NCBI GenBank assembly: GCA_000002435.2
Contig: CM018792.1
Source: Giardia intestinalis
Taxonomy: Eukaryota
DNA length: 64,000 nt
Direction: 5' to 3' (one strand)
Shown: piece after piece, positions 1 through 22,511 of the stretch
Numbering within the stretch: position 1 is the first letter of the stretch
Layout: the number at the start of each line of letters is the position of its first letter
Program-made: the position numbers and the translations under genes
Notes under the pieces: model-generated
The model's input: the letters and a program-made list of their open reading frames with translations, nothing else
The model's database searches: none
What the model was told of the DNA's origin: nothing

Positions 1-364
1 GTGTAGCGGCACCAACAAGCCCAACCTGGCTGGGAGCGGGTGCTTCGCATGTGCTGTTGAGGGATGCTCGCACTGCAATAGAGACAACATGTGCGAGAAG
101 TGTGATAACAACAAGAAGGTGAGCCCCGGGAGGAAGTCATGCGTGGATGGCTGTCCCAGCAACTCCACTGACACCGACTCTGTCTGTGTGTGCAACGATG
201 GATACAGCCCTGATGATGCTGGGGCCTCCTGTGTGTCCTCTGGCGCCAACAGGAGCGGGCTCTCCACGGGGGCCATAGCAGGGATCTCCGTCGCTGTCAT
301 CGCTGTCGTGGGGGGCCTCGTGGGCTTCTTGTGTTGGTGGTTCCTGTGTAGGGGGAAGGCATGA
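1..364 (+). CDS. VSP-like cysteine-rich surface protein, 3' fragment (5' end upstream of window)
   Basis: The frame is open from the window edge (codon phase starts at pos 2) to TGA 362-364. It translates ...CSGTNKPNLAGSGCFACAVEGCSHCNRD...[38 protein letters not shown]. It has a CXXC-rich ectodomain, an NRSG site, one TM helix and the invariant CRGKA tail, and is followed by the ACTTAGGTAGTGAAT box. Confidence 0.8.
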   Translation, partial: CSGTNKPNLAGSGCFACAVEGCSHCNRDNMCEKCDNNKKVSPGRKSCVDGCPSNSTDTDSVCVCNDGYSPDDAGASCVSSGANRSGLSTGAIAGISVAVIAVVGGLVGFLCWWFLCRGKA

Positions 365-378
365 CTTAGGTAGTGAAT
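364..378 (+). promoter_or_regulatory. extended VSP-type poly(A) signal ACTTAGGTAGTGAAT
   Basis: The box starts at the last base of the TGA stop. It fits the ACTYAGRTAGTRAAY pattern that, from memory of the Giardia literature, marks vsp 3' ends. Its ATG at 377 serves as the next unit's start. Confidence 0.7.
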
Positions 379-2364
379 GCTGTACAGTGATAGTGATAGT
401 GCTATGTGGTGTGGGGGTGATAGTGATAGTATGAGACTCCTCTTCATGGGCGGGTGCTACAAGACAGAGAGTCAGCCCGGCAGTGAGATATGCACAGCAG
501 CCAAGGATGGACTGTGCACTACTTGTAATACAGCTAACGGCCTGTTTAAGAACCCGGCTACAGCACCGAAGTCTGGTAGTGAGTGCATCCTCTGCTGGGA
601 CACGGTGGGAGATGGCGCGACGAAGGGAGTCGAGGGCTGTGCCACATGTACAGCACCAGCTAATAATAAGGGGGCTGCCACGTGTACTAAGTGCCAAGAT
701 GGATACTATAAGAACGCTCAGACATGTGTCAAATGTAATGAAGCTTGTCTGACCTGCGATGGAAGTGGCCAGAATGCGTGCACATCGTGCCCAGAGGGGA
801 AGTATTTGAAGACTGATAGTAAGACTTGTGTAGAGGCGTCTGCCTGTGCAAAGGGCACCTATGCCGACGAAGCAACCAGAAAGTGCGAATCCTGTACCGC
901 AGGCTCAGGTGCCGGCGGTACGGCAGGAGTGCAAGAATGCGCTGCGTGTGCATATAATAAGGCCAGCGGAAAACTGGAATGCTCTGAATGTACCGGCGGA
1001 GCCAAGATCCCCAGGGTGTCTTTGGATGGTACCTCGACCTGCGTGGCGAAGGACTACGCCGGGTGTGCCGGACAAGACAACGCTTTGTTTATAGTAGAGG
1101 ACAAGTCCAAATGCCTTTTGTGCGACGACGTTGAAACGGGGACAGATCCGAAGGATCAGGGCGTCGCCGGCTGTAAGGCTTGCACGAAGACCTCGAGTGC
1201 AAAGCCCACTTGCACAGAATGCTTGGAGGGATACAAAAGTACCGGAGTTGGTTCAGTAACATGCACCCCCTGTCACGCCAACTGTGCCACATGCTCAGCT
1301 GAAACTGCTGAGGATAAGTGCCTGACCTGCAAAGCAGGGTTCTTTCTAGTTGATGTTACGGGTGGGAAGAAGTGTGTCCCATGTGATAGCAAAACCGATA
1401 ATGGCATCGATGGGTGTGCCGAGTGTGATAACAGTACTGGATCCCTCAAGTGTACAAAGTGCAAGGTGAACTACAAGCAGAGCGGTACCGGTCCTGTTAC
1501 ATGTACCAAGACTTGTGAAGATGAGACTGCATGCGGGGGTACCTCTGGCGCCTGTGATGCCATCGTAATAGATGATAAGGGCAACACAAAGCACTACTGT
1601 TCATACTGTGGGGATGACAGTAAGGTACCGATTGATGGGAAGTGTGTTGATAGTGGTAGTATAAATGGTAATACTTGTGCTAAAGGTGTATGTACACAGT
1701 GTGCTCAAGGATACTTCTTATACATGGGAGGCTGTTATAAGGTAGCAAGTCCACCTGGTAACCTCATGTGCACTGAAGCAACAACAGCTGGTGTCTGCAC
1801 AGAGGCGGCCAACAATAAGTACTTCGTAGTACCAGGAGCATCCAATCAGAATCAGTCTGTATTGGCATGTGGTAACCCATTAGGCACACTAGTAGGCACT
1901 CAAGGTACTGCTAAGGCATACGTGGGGGTACTCAACTGTTCACAGTGCACAGCCCCAGCAGCTCTGTCTGATGGTGGTATGGCTGCTGCTATATGTACCT
2001 CCTGTGACAGTGATAGGAAGCCCAACAGGGATGGCAGTGGGTGCTTCGCATGTGCCGTTAGTGGATGCTCGCACTGCAACAGGGATGACATGTGCGAGGC
2101 ATGTAATGATGGTAAGAAGGTGAGCCCTGGGAGGAAGTCATGCGTGGATAAGTGTCCCAGCAACTCCACTGACACCGACTCTGTCTGTGTGTGCGACGAT
2201 GGATATAGCCCTGACAGCAGTGGGACCTCCTGTGTGTCTATGAGCACCAACAGGAGCGGGCTCTCCACGGGGGCCATCGCGGGCATCTCCGTCGCTGTCA
2301 TCGCTGTCGTGGGGGTCTCATAGGGTTCCTCTGCTGGTGGTTCCTGTGTAGAGGGAAGGCGTGA
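377..2364 (+). pseudogene. VSP-like unit 1, frame-shifted by a 1-nt deletion in a G-run (intact length would be 662 aa)
   Basis: An ATG at 377 (embedded in the upstream poly(A) box) opens a frame that terminates at TAG 2321-2323 (...AVIAVVGVS*). The near-identical copy at 20523..22511 has gtcgtggggggtctc where this copy has gtcgtgggggtctc at 2307-2320 (G6 against G5). The +1 frame 2323-2364 still encodes GFLCWWFLCRGKA* followed by the poly(A) box. This is either a pseudogene or a homopolymer sequencing error. Confidence 0.65.
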
Positions 2365-20510: not shown

Positions 20511-20524
20511 CTTAGGTAGTGAAT
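20510..20524 (+). promoter_or_regulatory. extended VSP-type poly(A) signal ACTTAGGTAGTGAAT
   Basis: The box overlaps the last base of the unit 10 TGA stop. Its ATG at 20523 starts unit 11. Confidence 0.65.
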
Positions 20525-22511
20525 GCTGTACAGTGATAGTGATAGTGCTATGTGGTGTGGGGGTGATAGTGGTGGTGTGGGACTTCTCTTCATGGGCGGG
20601 TGCTACAAGACAGAGAGTCAGCCCGGCAGTGAGATATGCACAGCAGCCAAGGATGGACTGTGCACTACTTGTAATACAGCTAACGGCCTGTTTAAGAACC
20701 CGGCTACAGCACCGAAGTCTGGTAGTGAGTGCATCCTCTGCTGGGACACGGTGGGAGATGGCGCGACGAAGGGAGTCGAGGGCTGTGCCACATGTACAGC
20801 ACCAGCTAATAATAAGGGGGCTGCCACGTGTACTAAGTGCCAAGATGGATACTATAAGAACGCTCAGACATGTGTCAAATGTAATGAAGCTTGTCTGACC
20901 TGCGATGGAAGTGGCCAGAATGCGTGCACATCGTGCCCAGAGGGGAAGTATTTGAAGACTGATAGTAAGACTTGTGTAGAGGCGTCTGCCTGTGCAAAGG
21001 GCACCTATGCCGACGAAGCAACCAGAAAGTGCGAATCCTGTACCGCAGGCTCAGGTGCCGGCGGTACGGCAGGAGTGCAAGAATGCGCTGCGTGTGCATA
21101 TAATAAGGCCAGCGGAAAACTGGAATGCTCTGAATGTACCGGCGGAGCCAAGATCCCCAGGGTGTCTTTGGATGGTACCTCGACCTGCGTGGCGAAGGAC
21201 TACGCCGGGTGTGCCGGACAAGACAACGCTTTGTTTATAGTAGAGGACAAGTCCAAATGCCTTTTGTGCGACGACGTTGAAACGGGGACAGATCCGAAGG
21301 ATCAGGGCGTCGCCGGCTGTAAGGCTTGCACGAAGACCTCGAGTGCAAAGCCCACTTGCACAGAATGCTTGGAGGGATACAAAAGTACCGGAGTTGGTTC
21401 AGTAACATGCACCCCCTGTCACGCCAACTGTGCCACATGCTCAGCTGAAACTGCTGAGGATAAGTGCCTGACCTGCAAAGCAGGGTTCTTTCTAGTTGAT
21501 GTTACGGGTGGGAAGAAGTGTGTCCCATGTGATAGCAAAACCGATAATGGCATCGATGGGTGTGCCGAGTGTGATAACAGTACTGGATCCCTCAAGTGTA
21601 CAAAGTGCAAGGTGAACTACAAGCAGAGCGGTACCGGTCCTGTTACATGTACCAAGACTTGTGAAGATGAGACTGCATGCGGGGGTACCTCTGGCGCCTG
21701 TGATGCCATCGTAATAGATGATAAGGGCAACACAAAGCACTACTGTTCATACTGTGGGGATGACAGTAAGGTACCGATTGATGGGAAGTGTGTTGATAGT
21801 GGTAGTATAAATGGTAATACTTGTGCTAAAGGTGTATGTACACAGTGTGCTCAAGGATACTTCTTATACATGGGAGGCTGTTATAAGGTAGCAAGTCCAC
21901 CTGGTAACCTCATGTGCACTGAAGCAACAACAGCTGGTGTCTGCACAGAGGCGGCCAACAATAAGTACTTCGTAGTACCAGGAGCATCCAATCAGAATCA
22001 GTCTGTATTGGCATGTGGTAACCCATTAGGCACACTAGTAGGCACTCAAGGTACTGCTAAGGCATACGTGGGGGTACTCAACTGTTCACAGTGCACAGCC
22101 CCAGCAGCTCTGTCTGATGGTGGTATGGCTGCTGCTATATGTACCTCCTGTGACAGTGATAGGAAGCCCAACAGGGATGGCAGTGGGTGCTTCGCATGTG
22201 CCGTTAGTGGATGCTCGCACTGCAACAGGGATGACATGTGCGAGGCATGTAATGATGGTAAGAAGGTGAGCCCTGGGAGGAAGTCATGCGTGGATAAGTG
22301 TCCCAGCAACTCCACTGACACCGACTCTGTCTGTGTGTGCGACGATGGATATAGCCCTGACAGCAGTGGGACCTCCTGTGTGTCTATGAGCACCAACAGG
22401 AGCGGGCTCTCCACGGGGGCCATCGCGGGCATCTCCGTCGCTGTCATCGCTGTCGTGGGGGGTCTCATAGGGTTCCTCTGCTGGTGGTTCCTGTGTAGAG
22501 GGAAGGCGTGA
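20523..22511 (+). CDS. VSP-like cysteine-rich surface protein unit 11 (662 aa; ATG inside the preceding poly(A) box)
   Basis: ATG 20523 lies within the upstream AGTGAATGCT box and the frame runs to TGA 22509-22511. The translation reads MLYSDSDSAMWCGGDSGGVGLLFMGGCYKTESQPGSEICTAAKDGLCTTC...[38 protein letters not shown]. It is an intact twin of unit 1 at an offset of 20146 bp and is the last unit of the array. Confidence 0.8.
   Translation: MLYSDSDSAMWCGGDSGGVGLLFMGGCYKTESQPGSEICTAAKDGLCTTCNTANGLFKNPATAPKSGSECILCWDTVGDGATKGVEGCATCTAPANNKGAATCTKCQDGYYKNAQTCVKCNEACLTCDGSGQNACTSCPEGKYLKTDSKTCVEASACAKGTYADEATRKCESCTAGSGAGGTAGVQECAACAYNKASGKLECSECTGGAKIPRVSLDGTSTCVAKDYAGCAGQDNALFIVEDKSKCLLCDDVETGTDPKDQGVAGCKACTKTSSAKPTCTECLEGYKSTGVGSVTCTPCHANCATCSAETAEDKCLTCKAGFFLVDVTGGKKCVPCDSKTDNGIDGCAECDNSTGSLKCTKCKVNYKQSGTGPVTCTKTCEDETACGGTSGACDAIVIDDKGNTKHYCSYCGDDSKVPIDGKCVDSGSINGNTCAKGVCTQCAQGYFLYMGGCYKVASPPGNLMCTEATTAGVCTEAANNKYFVVPGASNQNQSVLACGNPLGTLVGTQGTAKAYVGVLNCSQCTAPAALSDGGMAAAICTSCDSDRKPNRDGSGCFACAVSGCSHCNRDDMCEACNDGKKVSPGRKSCVDKCPSNSTDTDSVCVCDDGYSPDSSGTSCVSMSTNRSGLSTGAIAGISVAVIAVVGGLIGFLCWWFLCRGKA

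What the first reader, a model, noticed from the sequence alone, without database searches (positions are those of the whole stretch)
241..22511. Higher-order repeat with a 20,146-bp period; the array probably continues upstream of the window
The tail of unit 0 together with all of unit 1 (241-2364) is repeated at 20387-22511. Spacer variants also recur in the same order. The simplest reading is a roughly 20-kb segmental duplication of a multi-unit block, or a circularly permuted higher-order repeat, whose second copy ends at the array boundary (22525). The window's left edge therefore probably sits inside a larger array. The alternative is that this is a diploid or tetraploid haplotype duplication that was misassembled in tandem.
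Basis: seen in the sequence. Interest (0 to 1): 0.5.

Follow-up and report, generated by a model that had tools for sequence, protein, structure and literature searches.

The report
Giardia surface-antigen pseudogene array, one duplicated unit
The repeat is real, but it is one 2.15-kb gene cassette copied to a second place inside an already described head-to-tail array of start-less variant surface protein (VSP) genes of the gut parasite Giardia, not a 20-kb higher-order repeat.

Summary
Window 1-22,530 is a head-to-tail array of 12 Giardia lamblia WB variant-specific surface protein (VSP) units. Each ends in the family signature CRGKA-stop followed by an AGTGAA polyadenylation signal. By unit sizes and pairwise identities it is the chromosome-4 "linear array" vsp56-65 of Adam et al. 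2010, extended by about two units.

The reported match is real: 230-2383 equals 20376-22530 at 99.6%, offset 20,146. It covers only one cassette: the last 135 nt of the preceding unit, a spacer, one whole unit and 19 nt after its stop. The 229 nt to its left are at chance identity at that offset. Other near-identical tracts lie at offsets of 3.6, 5.5, 7.3, 8.8-9.0, 12.7-12.9 and 16.3 kb. There is therefore no 20-kb period. The pattern is a patchwork of unit-scale duplication or gene conversion.

The units have no start codon in the right place, no signal peptide and no initiator motif, so they are ψVSPs. Nine of eleven keep open frames of 581-1017 codons with dN/dS near 0.3, and the other two differ by single homopolymer bases. 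Intact VSPs elsewhere share identical stretches of 43-83 residues with different units.

This fits the published, unproven idea of a silent cassette reservoir. It is already known and of low interest.

The parts
1..364 (+). Unit 0 (U0), 3' end only, cut by the window edge. It holds the last 120 codons of a VSP, ending ...FLCWWFLCRGKA-stop.
   Evidence: Translation. CRGKA-stop at 347-364. Positions 1-399 are 97% identical to the tail of U6 at 12872-13268.
230..2383 (+). Copy 1 of the duplicated cassette. It comprises the conserved last 135 nt of U0, a type-A spacer, all of U1, and 19 nt past the stop including AGTGAA.
   Evidence: 99.63% identical to 20376-22530. Boundaries were read from the alignments.
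20376..22530 (+). Copy 2 of the duplicated cassette. It comprises the last 135 nt of U10, a type-A spacer, all of U11 and 19 nt past the stop. U11 is the last unit of the array.
   Evidence: ORF 20523-22511 is 100% identical to XP_001707667.1 VSP of Giardia lamblia ATCC 50803. This is vsp65, 662 aa, in Adam 2010 Additional file 1.
365..2364 (+). U1, a ψVSP cassette. The open frame from ATG 377 is cut at 2323 because the G-run 2311-2315 has 5 G instead of 6, so the CRGKA tail is in another frame.
426..439 (+). Patch of five transitions (426, 428, 431, 434, 439) in the spacer. These are the only substitutions between the two copies upstream of the stop codon. Copy 2 equivalent: 20572-20585.
   Evidence: Alignment. 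The copy-1 version reads DSDSMRLLF and also occurs in P0004 and P0107. The copy-2 version reads DSGGVGLLF, and the near-identical DSGGVGLFF occurs in P0009. All three proteins come from other arrays.
2365..4277 (+). U2, a ψVSP cassette. The frame is open from 2418 (619 codons) and begins WSEICTAA. The first ATG is at 2994.
   Evidence: XP_001705784.1 (427 aa) matches 2994-4274 at 99%.
4278..6177 (+). U3, a ψVSP cassette. The frame is open from 4354 (607 codons).
6178..8102 (+). U4, a ψVSP cassette. The frame is open from 6231 (623 codons). First ATG to stop is 340 aa, which equals vsp58.
8103..11207 (+). U5, a long ψVSP cassette of 3.1 kb. The frame is open from 8154 (1017 codons). First ATG to stop is 887 aa, which equals vsp59 (clade II).
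   Evidence: XP_001707661.1 matches at 100%. Pfam VSP E = 1.4e-77. Table of Adam 2010.
11208..13235 (+). U6, a ψVSP cassette with an A-like spacer. Its 650-aa ORF equals vsp60.
   Evidence: XP_001707663.1 matches at 100%..
13236..15071 (+). U7, a ψVSP cassette with 583 open codons. First ATG to stop is 183 aa, which equals vsp61. It is 94.5% identical to U10.
15072..16870 (+). U8, a ψVSP cassette with 581 open codons. First ATG to stop is 389 aa, which equals vsp62.
16871..18708 (+). U9, a ψVSP cassette with one frameshift at the C-run 18316-18319 (4 C; the homologous stretch of U5 has 5). With one more base, first ATG to stop is 518 aa, which equals vsp63.
18709..20510 (+). U10, a ψVSP cassette with 582 open codons. 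First ATG to stop is 183 aa, which equals vsp64.
20511..22511 (+). U11, the terminal ψVSP cassette. Its 662-aa ORF runs from an ATG in the spacer, has no signal peptide, and equals vsp65.
11232..11270 (+). Example of the spacer decamer repeat GGGTGATAGW. It occurs in 2-6 copies in the inter-unit spacers and carries TGA and TAG. Other runs are at 2400-2420, 4302-4363, 6213-6233, 13262-13327, 15107-15127, 16906-16936 and 18744-18764.
   Evidence: TRF. The pattern GGTGATARNGG has 21 hits, all on the + strand and all in spacers, against 0.22 expected.
22531..23136 (.). Unique non-coding flank between the array end and the convergent flavodiiron-like gene at 23137-24381 (- strand).
   Evidence: Sequence. 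Pfam ODP plus flavodoxin. Independent contigs stop at 22,485-22,612.

Best explanation
Window 1-22,530 is the 3' part of a linear array of variant-specific surface protein pseudogene cassettes (ψVSPs) in Giardia lamblia (intestinalis) WB. It is the chromosome-4 array vsp56-65 of Adam et al. 2010, here joined to about two further units.

Each unit is a VSP gene without its first ~300 nt, which would hold the initiator, start codon, signal peptide and conserved N-terminal module. It keeps the variable Cys-rich body, the conserved transmembrane-CRGKA end and the polyadenylation signal. Units are separated by 51-84 nt of stop-rich decamer repeats.

The finding itself is one cassette present twice, as U1 and U11, ten units apart. 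The shared tract starts inside the conserved last 135 nt of the preceding unit and ends just after the unit's own conserved end. Both ends therefore lie in the same homology element. I infer that one unit was overwritten by, or inserted as, a copy of the other. The mechanism would be non-reciprocal homologous recombination (gene conversion, or unequal exchange between misaligned units), and the event was recent. A second short conversion patch of 14 nt in the spacer followed.

The same process at other registers explains the other 92-97% tracts at seven further offsets.

Functional reading (inferred, not shown): the cassettes are silent, but they are kept translatable because they exchange segments with expression-competent VSP genes. 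This would make them a reservoir for new surface-antigen variants.
For: Identity of the locus:
- Pfam VSP PF03302 hits with E from 1e-39 to 1e-77.
- Twelve CRGKA-stop ends in one orientation.
- The U11, U6 and U5 ORFs are 100% identical to XP_001707667, XP_001707663 and XP_001707661 of G. lamblia ATCC 50803.
- First-ATG-to-stop lengths of 340, 887, 650, 183, 389, 518, 183 and 662 aa equal vsp58-65 in Additional file 1 of PMC2996952.
- U7/U10 identity is 94.5%, matching that paper's 94% for vsp61/64.

ψVSP status:
- The open frames start WSEICTAA or LLFMGGCYKT with no ATG or signal peptide. Intact VSPs carry about 100 extra N-terminal residues that end ...FLFMGGCYKT(S)(L/Q)WSEICTAA.
- There is no [TC]AATGTT initiator on either strand in 1-23,000.

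Single-cassette duplication:
- Searches give the tract and its boundaries.
- The identity matrix shows no periodic lag.
- The other tracts lie at offsets of 3,635, 5,473, 7,305, 8,813-8,958, 12,706-12,871 and 16,343.

Homology arms: conservation is 0.70-0.84 at the cassette 5' end and 0.86-0.90 over the last 150 nt, against 0.38-0.53 in the middle.

Coding capacity kept: no stops in 581-1017 codons, 12% Cys, 25-44 CXXC motifs, median dN/dS 0.32.

Exchange with intact genes: identical stretches of 83 aa (P0015 with U3), 67 aa (P0013 with U8), and 57 and 43 aa (P0002 with U11 and U3), against 50-67% overall identity.

Literature:
- The reservoir hypothesis is in PMC2996952.
- G. muris ψVSP arrays are reported as non-transcribed and recombining in PMC7641422.
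Against: - No read-level data were available. I cannot show that both copies are single-copy loci in the cell.
- The two frameshifts, in U1 and U9, sit in homopolymer runs. The 2007 annotation implies an intact U9. The sequence therefore probably carries long-read errors, and other details may be imperfect too.
- vsp57 (641 aa) of the 2010 table does not fit U3 (559 aa from its first ATG), so the two assemblies differ around U2-U3.
- The direction and timing of exchange with intact VSPs are unknown. Shared tracts could reflect common ancestry of segments rather than ongoing donation.
- dN/dS of 0.3 could have built up while the units were still functional genes, before they joined the array.
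- Antigenic switching in G. intestinalis is generally held to be epigenetic or post-transcriptional rather than recombinational (PMC2996952 abstract).
- I could not see the sequence upstream of the window, so the head of the array is unknown.
Confidence: 0.85

Rival explanations
1. A true higher-order repeat or ~20-kb multi-unit segmental duplication, of which the window shows one full period plus the first unit of the next.
For: There is one 2.15-kb match at offset 20,146, and copy 2 ends at the array boundary, so a longer second copy cannot be seen. Weak collinear traces of multi-unit similarity do exist, but at other offsets. At ~12.7-12.9 kb, U0|U1|U2 resembles U6|U7|U8. At ~8.8-9.0 kb, U2|U3 to U5 resembles U6|U7 to U9.
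Against: - At offset 20,146 the sequence left of 230 is at chance identity. The body of U0 does not match the body of U10. It matches U6 at 97%.
- No unit lag has raised mean identity.
- The spacer type order is not periodic.
Confidence: 0.04
2. An assembly artefact. One real unit was placed twice, or two haplotypes or nuclei were laid out in tandem, or contigs were mis-joined inside a repetitive array.
For: - VSP arrays broke the 2007 assembly, and short-read assemblies stop at their edge.
- The sequence has homopolymer indels typical of long-read consensus errors.
- The 2010 table disagrees with the window at U3.
Against: - The copies are not identical. A 5-transition spacer haplotype distinguishes them, and each version occurs in other arrays.
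- They have different neighbours on both sides and are separated by nine distinct units.
- Optical mapping in 2010 placed two more array genes, at the end of contig 32, next to the ten on contig 12. That gives 12, the number of units seen here.
- WB has very low allelic heterozygosity by published accounts. This point rests on my own knowledge.
Confidence: 0.07
3. A graveyard of dead genes. The array is a neutral by-product of unequal crossing-over among discarded VSP copies, with no role in antigen diversification. The U1/U11 pair is just the most recent neutral duplication.
For: - The units lack start codon, signal peptide and initiator.
- Adam et al. list "remains of discarded vsp genes" as an alternative.
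- G. muris ψVSPs are not transcribed.
- Homogenisation by conversion can by itself delay decay.
Against: - Nine of eleven units, and possibly all eleven, keep open frames of 581-1017 codons, with Cys and CXXC content intact and dN/dS about 0.3.
- Long identical tracts are shared with intact VSPs on other chromosomes.
- The cassettes are cut at the same conserved junction and keep conserved arms at both ends.
Confidence: 0.25
4. The units are ordinary, individually expressed VSP genes that use internal or spacer ATGs, as annotated in 2007.
For: - U1, U6 and U11 have an ATG in the spacer that gives ORFs of 648-662 aa.
- All units have a polyadenylation signal.
- The 2007 RefSeq called them VSP.
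Against: - The N-termini (MLYSDSDSAMWCGG..., MIVLCGVLCSVGDSDS...) are not signal peptides. Intact VSPs begin with hydrophobic leaders such as MFQLIPLFVASALMAAC.
- In most units the first ATG is 150-1,200 nt into the frame.
- There is no initiator motif.
- The current reference annotation demoted such genes to ψVSP.
Confidence: 0.05

Closest known systems
Giardia intestinalis WB vsp 'linear arrays' (Adam et al. 2010, BMC Genomics 11:424), annotated as ψVSP arrays by Xu et al. 2020 (Sci Data 7:38)
   Same: - Head-to-tail orientation and short intergenic spacers (about 60 bp in the paper, 51-84 nt here).
- Downstream members lack the initiator and a proper start.
- Mostly clade I units with one clade II unit of 887 aa.
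- The same ORF lengths, and the same 94% pair.

This is that array, not merely something like it.
   Different: - The window joins 12 units in one sequence. The 2010 assembly had 10 on contig 12, plus 2 on a neighbouring contig placed by optical map.
- The 99.6% direct pair U1/U11 was not described. The 2010 paper states that identical vsp pairs occur only as inverted pairs.
- The sequence differs from the 2010 table at vsp57/U3 and by homopolymer bases in U1 and U9.
Giardia muris ψVSP arrays (Xu et al. 2020, Microb Genom 6:mgen000402)
   Same: These are arrays of signal-peptide-less VSP pseudogenes. They are reported as transcriptionally silent, with phylogenetic evidence of recombination or segmental conversion with intact VSPs.
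   Different: The G. muris arrays are almost all next to telomeres and end in GCRGK. This array abuts ordinary housekeeping genes on its 3' side and ends in CRGKA.
Silent cassette archives used for recombinational antigenic variation: Trypanosoma brucei VSG arrays with 70-bp repeats, Pneumocystis MSG, Borrelia vls, Neisseria pilS, Anaplasma msp2 pseudogenes
   Same: - Promoter-less, 5'-truncated coding cassettes in tandem.
- Each is bounded upstream by a short degenerate repeat and downstream by a conserved 3' element.
- Reading frames are preserved.
- Mosaic tracts are shared with expressed genes.
   Different: No transfer from a cassette into an expressed gene has been shown for G. intestinalis. 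Switching there is attributed to epigenetic or RNA-based control. The families are not homologous. This is a working analogy only.
Higher-order repeats of satellite DNA (for example alpha-satellite HORs)
   Same: Tandem units with one pair much more alike than neighbouring units are.
   Different: There is no block periodicity, the units are protein-coding, and only one unit pair is near-identical.

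Membership tests
Giardia variant-specific surface protein (VSP, Pfam PF03302) | Significant match to the family profile | tested here: met
   E = 4.5e-39, 5.3e-40 and 1.4e-77, with bit scores of 135-262 against a cut-off of 31.4. There are 250 homologues, nearly all named Giardia VSP.
Giardia variant-specific surface protein (VSP, Pfam PF03302) | C-terminal transmembrane segment followed by the CRGKA tail and a stop | tested here: met
   Twelve of twelve units end ...GGL(V/I)GFLCWWF(L/V/I)CRGKA-stop. In U1 and U9 that tail is out of frame by one homopolymer base.
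Giardia variant-specific surface protein (VSP, Pfam PF03302) | About 12% cysteine with many CXXC motifs | tested here: met
   11.5-12.5% Cys and 25-44 CXXC per unit.
Giardia variant-specific surface protein (VSP, Pfam PF03302) | Start codon followed by an N-terminal signal peptide, required for an intact VSP in Xu et al. 2020 | tested here: not met
   The frames open with WSEICTAA or ...LLFMGGCYKT. The first ATGs are internal or give non-hydrophobic N-termini. Intact VSPs have about 100 more residues, including a hydrophobic leader. No signal-peptide predictor was available, so this was judged by eye from the sequences. The units are therefore filed as ψVSP, not VSP.
Giardia variant-specific surface protein (VSP, Pfam PF03302) | Initiator element TAATGTT or CAATGTT at the start | tested here: not met
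   No match on either strand in 1-23,000.
Giardia variant-specific surface protein (VSP, Pfam PF03302) | Polyadenylation signal AGTRAA just after the stop | tested here: met
   AGTGAA lies 8 nt after the stop in 11 units and 11 nt after it in one.
vsp linear array / ψVSP array (Adam 2010; Xu 2020) | Two or more vsp units head to tail, with intergenic distances of tens of bp | tested here: met
   Twelve units on the + strand. The frame re-opens 12-84 nt after the previous stop.
vsp linear array / ψVSP array (Adam 2010; Xu 2020) | Downstream members lack the initiator and a proper start codon | tested here: met
vsp linear array / ψVSP array (Adam 2010; Xu 2020) | The first member of the array is a complete VSP with upstream region and initiator | not testable with these tools
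   The head of the array lies upstream of the window. Look-ups of the U1 and U11 products found no contig.
Higher-order repeat or multi-unit segmental duplication with a 20,146-bp period | Every position in the block matches its partner one period away better than neighbouring units match each other | tested here: not met
   Only 230-2383 matches. Positions 1-229 are at chance at that offset. Only about 2.4 kb of a second period could exist inside the array.
Higher-order repeat or multi-unit segmental duplication with a 20,146-bp period | Raised mean identity at one unit lag | tested here: not met
   Mean identity is 73.8-77.0% at lags 1-9. Lag 10 has a single pair.
Silent donor-cassette archive for recombinational antigenic variation | Promoter-less, 5'-truncated cassettes flanked by conserved homology at both ends | tested here: met
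Silent donor-cassette archive for recombinational antigenic variation | Segments shared with expression-competent genes in a mosaic pattern | tested here: inconclusive
   Identical stretches of 43-83 aa are shared with intact VSPs, against 50-67% overall identity. This was tested at the protein level only. Direction and age are unknown, and the DNA of the intact genes could not be fetched.
Silent donor-cassette archive for recombinational antigenic variation | Observed transfer of cassette sequence into an expressed gene during switching | not testable with these tools
   This needs longitudinal sequencing of expressed VSPs.

The most novel reading that the evidence does not exclude
The array may be an actively maintained archive rather than a graveyard. 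Units are kept translatable (dN/dS about 0.3, no stops). They are cut at one conserved junction and are flanked by a spacer decamer repeat and a conserved 3' arm. They are shuffled by cassette-length and short-patch conversion within and between arrays. On this reading, G. intestinalis would generate new mosaic VSPs by recombination from ψVSP cassettes, in addition to its epigenetic switching. The U1/U11 pair would be a fresh footprint of that machinery. The idea has been proposed in the literature but never demonstrated for G. intestinalis.
Probability: 0.3. Interest if true: 0.55.

Novelty: already known. Interest (0 to 1): 0.15.

Why it matters
As it stands, this is a correct sighting of a well-described feature of the Giardia WB genome. 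About 208 ψVSPs sit in such arrays (PMC7000408).

Its practical value is as an annotation and assembly check:
- A 2.15-kb, 99.6% direct duplicate lies within one array.
- Two homopolymer frameshifts are likely consensus errors.
- There is a discrepancy with the 2010 gene table at U2-U3.

If the cassette-reservoir reading were shown experimentally, it would add a recombinational layer to Giardia antigenic variation. That would bear on vaccine design against VSPs. That question is already posed in the literature, and this window does not newly open it.

Tried and rejected
1. Sequence upstream of the window. Exact-product look-ups for U1 (377-2323) and U11 (20523-22511) found nothing. A homology search with the 120-aa tail of U0 returned only short, 79-86% identical fragments and did not identify U0. 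Whether U0 is the head gene therefore stays open.

2. DNA of intact VSPs, for a nucleotide-level conversion test. Look-ups of P0002 and P0042 were not on record. Only a protein-level mosaic analysis was possible.

3. Tandem Repeats Finder. Its longest period is 500, so it sees only the 10-nt spacer repeats and not the 1.8-3.1-kb units.

4. The idea that the five clustered substitutions are independent point mutations was rejected. All five fall within 14 nt, while the roughly 1.9 kb between that patch and the stop codon holds no substitution. Both haplotypes occur in other arrays' products. A short conversion patch is the simpler explanation.

5. The idea of a single alternative period (12.8 or 8.9 kb) was rejected. 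The collinear traces at these offsets are partial, overlap each other, and are mixed with tracts at five other offsets.

6. Bacterial promoter and terminator scans and the phage, plasmid and E. coli collections were not used. The window is eukaryotic (Giardia), so they do not apply.

7. The CRGKAN hit at 48945-48962 is a one-mismatch chance match in a frame full of stops. It is not a VSP.

Full report
**1. The observation**

The first 22.5 kb of the window is G+C-richer than the rest (51-53% against 42-50%) and has a strong positive GC skew on the + strand.

A self-comparison confirms the reported match. Window 230-2383 aligns to 20376-22530 over 2,155 columns at 99.63% identity, with 7 mismatches and 1 gap, at offset 20,146. 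In ungapped 50-nt bins the identity is 100% from about 251 to 2300, except for one bin. All other pairs of units in the array are 70-80% identical, apart from one pair at 94.5%. The match is therefore real and far above family background.

The differences between the copies are:
- five transitions packed into 426-439 in the spacer;
- T2378 against C22525;
- a G-run of five (2311-2315) against six (22457-22462).

**2. What the units are**

Every unit ends with the codons for ...GFLCWWF(L/V/I)CRGKA followed by a stop. There are twelve such ends, all on the + strand, at 364, 2364, 4277, 6177, 8102, 11207, 13235, 15071, 16870, 18708, 20510 and 22511. Each is followed 8-11 nt later by AGTGAA.

The translated units hit Pfam PF03302, "Giardia variant-specific surface protein", with E from 1e-39 to 1e-77. 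They contain 11.5-12.5% cysteine and 25-44 CXXC motifs.

The ORF 20523-22511 is 100% identical to XP_001707667.1, VSP of Giardia lamblia ATCC 50803. ORFs in units 5 and 6 are 100% identical to XP_001707661.1 and XP_001707663.1. The window is therefore Giardia WB nuclear DNA, and the "repeat units" are VSP genes laid head to tail.

**3. This array is already in the literature**

Adam et al. 2010 (PMC2996952) described "linear arrays" of vsp genes. These have intergenic distances of about 60 bp, and their downstream members lack the initiator element. The longest array had ten genes (vsp56-65) on chromosome 4 at the end of contig 12. By optical map it lay next to a contig end carrying two more array genes.

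Their Additional file 1 gives protein lengths for vsp58-65 of 340, 887, 650, 183, 389, 518, 183 and 662 aa, with vsp59 the only clade II member. Measuring from the first ATG to the CRGKA stop in window units 4-11 gives 340, 887, 650, 183, 389, 518, 183 and 662. The 518 for unit 9 requires one extra base, as explained in section 7.

Their statement that vsp61 and vsp64 are 94% identical matches U7/U10 at 94.5%.

Xu et al. 2020 (PMC7000408) re-annotated such genes as ψVSPs. [quoted passage not shown]

**4. Anatomy of a unit**

In nine of eleven complete units a single frame opens 12-84 nt after the previous stop and runs without interruption for 581-1017 codons to CRGKA. It does not open with a start codon. 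It begins WSEICTAA... in U2, U3, U4, U5, U7, U8 and U10, or ...LLFMGGCYKTESQPGSEICTAA... in U1, U6 and U11.

Intact VSPs from other chromosomes (P0002, P0013, P0015, P0042, P0057) carry about 100 further N-terminal residues. These comprise a hydrophobic leader such as MFQLIPLFVASALMAAC and a conserved module ending ...GDGYFLFMGGCYKT(S)(L/Q)WSEICTAA. The array units are therefore VSP genes cut at one conserved junction. They lack promoter/initiator, start codon, signal peptide and the first module. No TAATGTT or CAATGTT initiator occurs on either strand of 1-23,000.

The spacers consist of the polyadenylation signal followed by 2-6 copies of a decamer, GGGTGATAGW, which carries TGA and TAG. This motif has 21 hits in the window, all on the + strand and all in the spacers, against 0.22 expected.

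Across units, conservation is high at the cassette 5' end (0.70-0.84) and over the last 150 nt (0.86-0.90). It is low in the body (0.38-0.53).

**5. Is there a 20-kb period?**

No. The duplicated tract starts at about 230, inside the conserved last 135 nt of the preceding unit. It ends at about 2383, 19 nt after the stop of the duplicated unit. It is one cassette bounded on both sides by the same conserved 3' element.

At the same offset, 1-229 against 20147-20375 is at chance identity. The body of unit 0 is therefore unrelated to the body of unit 10. Its tail is instead 97% identical to the tail of unit 6.

To the right, copy 2 runs into unique flank. Eight independent short-read assemblies that come in from the right stop at 22,485-22,612 or at 23,128-23,140. 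The flank carries a flavodiiron-like gene, an AAA ATPase and DEAD-box helicases.

Mean identity by unit lag is flat at 73.8-77.0% for lags 1-9. The order of spacer types, A B C B C A' C B C B A, is not periodic.

Other tracts of 92-97% identity lie at offsets of 3,635, 5,473, 7,305, 8,813-8,958, 12,706-12,871 and 16,343. Several of them span a unit boundary, for example 2231-2948 matching 14937-15655 and, over 2231-2809, 18574-19156. Two partial collinear series exist: U0|U1|U2 with U6|U7|U8, and U2|U3 to U5 with U6|U7 to U9. These suggest older multi-unit events, but they overlap and are eroded. The picture is a patchwork of duplication and conversion at many registers, not a higher-order repeat.

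**6. How the duplicate most likely arose (inference)**

Both ends of the tract fall in the conserved 3' element, and the intervening nine units are not duplicated. The simplest event is a non-reciprocal copy of one cassette onto another position, either by gene conversion or by unequal exchange between misaligned units followed by loss. The event is recent, because the roughly 1.9 kb between the spacer patch and the stop codon holds no substitution.

The five clustered transitions are best read as a later short conversion patch rather than point mutations. The copy-1 version (protein DSDSMRLLF) recurs in XP_001703902 and XP_001705183. The copy-2 version (DSGGVGLLF) has a near-identical counterpart, DSGGVGLFF, in XP_001706653. 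All three proteins come from other arrays.

**7. Could it be an assembly artefact?**

I cannot test depth or spanning reads.

Against an artefact:
- The copies differ by a haplotype patch.
- They have different neighbours on both sides.
- Nine distinct units separate them.
- The count from the 2010 optical map, ten plus two array genes, equals the twelve units seen here.

For caution:
- The frameshift in U9 is a C-run of four (18316-18319) where the homologous stretch of U5 has five. With one more base the ORF is 518 aa, exactly vsp63 of the Sanger-era table.
- The U1 frameshift is likewise a one-base difference in a G-run.
- Both look like long-read consensus errors or minor polymorphisms.
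- vsp57 (641 aa) does not fit U3 (559 aa), so the assemblies differ around U2-U3.

**8. What the array may do**

Shown:
- The units keep their coding capacity. They have no stops, the Cys/CXXC pattern is intact, and the median Nei-Gojobori dN/dS is 0.32 over 36 pairs.
- Intact VSPs on other chromosomes share long identical stretches with different units. These are 83 aa (P0015 with U3), 67 aa (P0013 with U8), and 57 and 43 aa (P0002 with U11 and U3), against 50-67% overall identity.

Inferred: the cassettes exchange segments with expression-competent VSP genes, using the conserved 5' junction and 3' end as homology arms. That would make the array a silent reservoir. Adam et al. proposed this, alongside the alternative of "discarded" genes. 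Xu et al. argued it for G. muris, where the ψVSP arrays are not transcribed.

Not shown: any transfer event, its direction, or its rate. The low dN/dS could date from before the units joined the array.

**9. Verdict**

- The interpretation as a 20-kb higher-order repeat or block duplication is not supported.
- The inference that the window edge lies inside the array is correct for at least the rest of unit 0.
- The feature is an already known kind and, in fact, an already described locus.
- The only new details are the 99.6% direct pair U1/U11, which was not noted in 2010, and some assembly-quality flags.
- Interest is low.

Noticed in passing
window 2400-2420, 4302-4363, 6213-6233, 11232-11270, 13262-13327, 15107-15127, 16906-16936, 18744-18764, 20562-20572: A 10-nt repeat, GGGTGATAGW, occurs in 1-6 copies and carries TGA and TAG. 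It is found only in the inter-unit spacers of the array: 21 hits, all on the + strand, against 0.22 expected. Its position just upstream of each cassette recalls the 70-bp repeats upstream of silent trypanosome VSG genes. No function is known.
   Followed up: partly
window 2311-2315 (U1) and 18316-18319 (U9): The only two frameshifts in the eleven complete units are one-base shortenings of a G-run and a C-run. The 2010 gene table implies an intact U9 (518 aa). These are probably long-read consensus errors or minor polymorphisms, so all eleven units may really be open.
   Followed up: partly
window 4278-6177 (U3) and 2365-4277 (U2): vsp57 in Adam 2010 is 641 aa, but U3 gives 559 aa from its first ATG and holds at most 607 open codons. 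The older assembly and this sequence therefore differ around U2-U3, near where the old contig 12 ended.
   Followed up: no
window 2994-4274 (U2); compare 8544-11204 (U5): XP_001705784.1 (427 aa) comes from a different accession run than the U5, U6 and U11 proteins and is 99% identical to U2. The 2010 table lists a chromosome-5 array with members of 499, 427 and 887 aa (vsp110-112), the last the same size as U5. A paralogous array elsewhere seems to hold near-copies of U2 and U5, which suggests exchange between arrays.
   Followed up: partly
window 1-816 vs 12872-13657; 2231-2948 vs 14937-15655; 4160-9730 vs 13118-18542: There are partial collinear similarity series (88-97% patches) at offsets of ~12.7-12.9 kb and ~8.8-9.0 kb, several of them crossing unit boundaries. 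They may be remnants of older multi-unit duplications, now eroded by later conversions.
   Followed up: partly
window 22485-22612, 23128-23140 and 24273: Independent short-read (Logan) contigs from several sequencing runs end at the array boundary. Two end just outside the flavodiiron-like gene and one ends inside it at 24273, which suggests that this gene or part of it is also repeated in the genome. Some contigs are 100% identical to the window and others 99.3-99.6%, presumably from other assemblage A isolates.
   Followed up: no
window 24944-26890 (+) and 26811-32567 (-): The AAA ATPase gene and a convergent 1,918-aa ORF with no Pfam match overlap by 80 nt at their 3' ends. Several other large ORFs (34613-38425, 43241-44881, 48111-49574, 49612-51186) also have no Pfam match.
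   Followed up: no
window 137-697 (-), 3786-4553 (-), 12770-13522 (-), 22046-22888 (-) and others: Long antisense ORFs of 150-280 aa run through the VSP units. They are probably a by-product of the skewed codon composition of VSP genes (GC skew +0.15 to +0.18) rather than genes.
   Followed up: no
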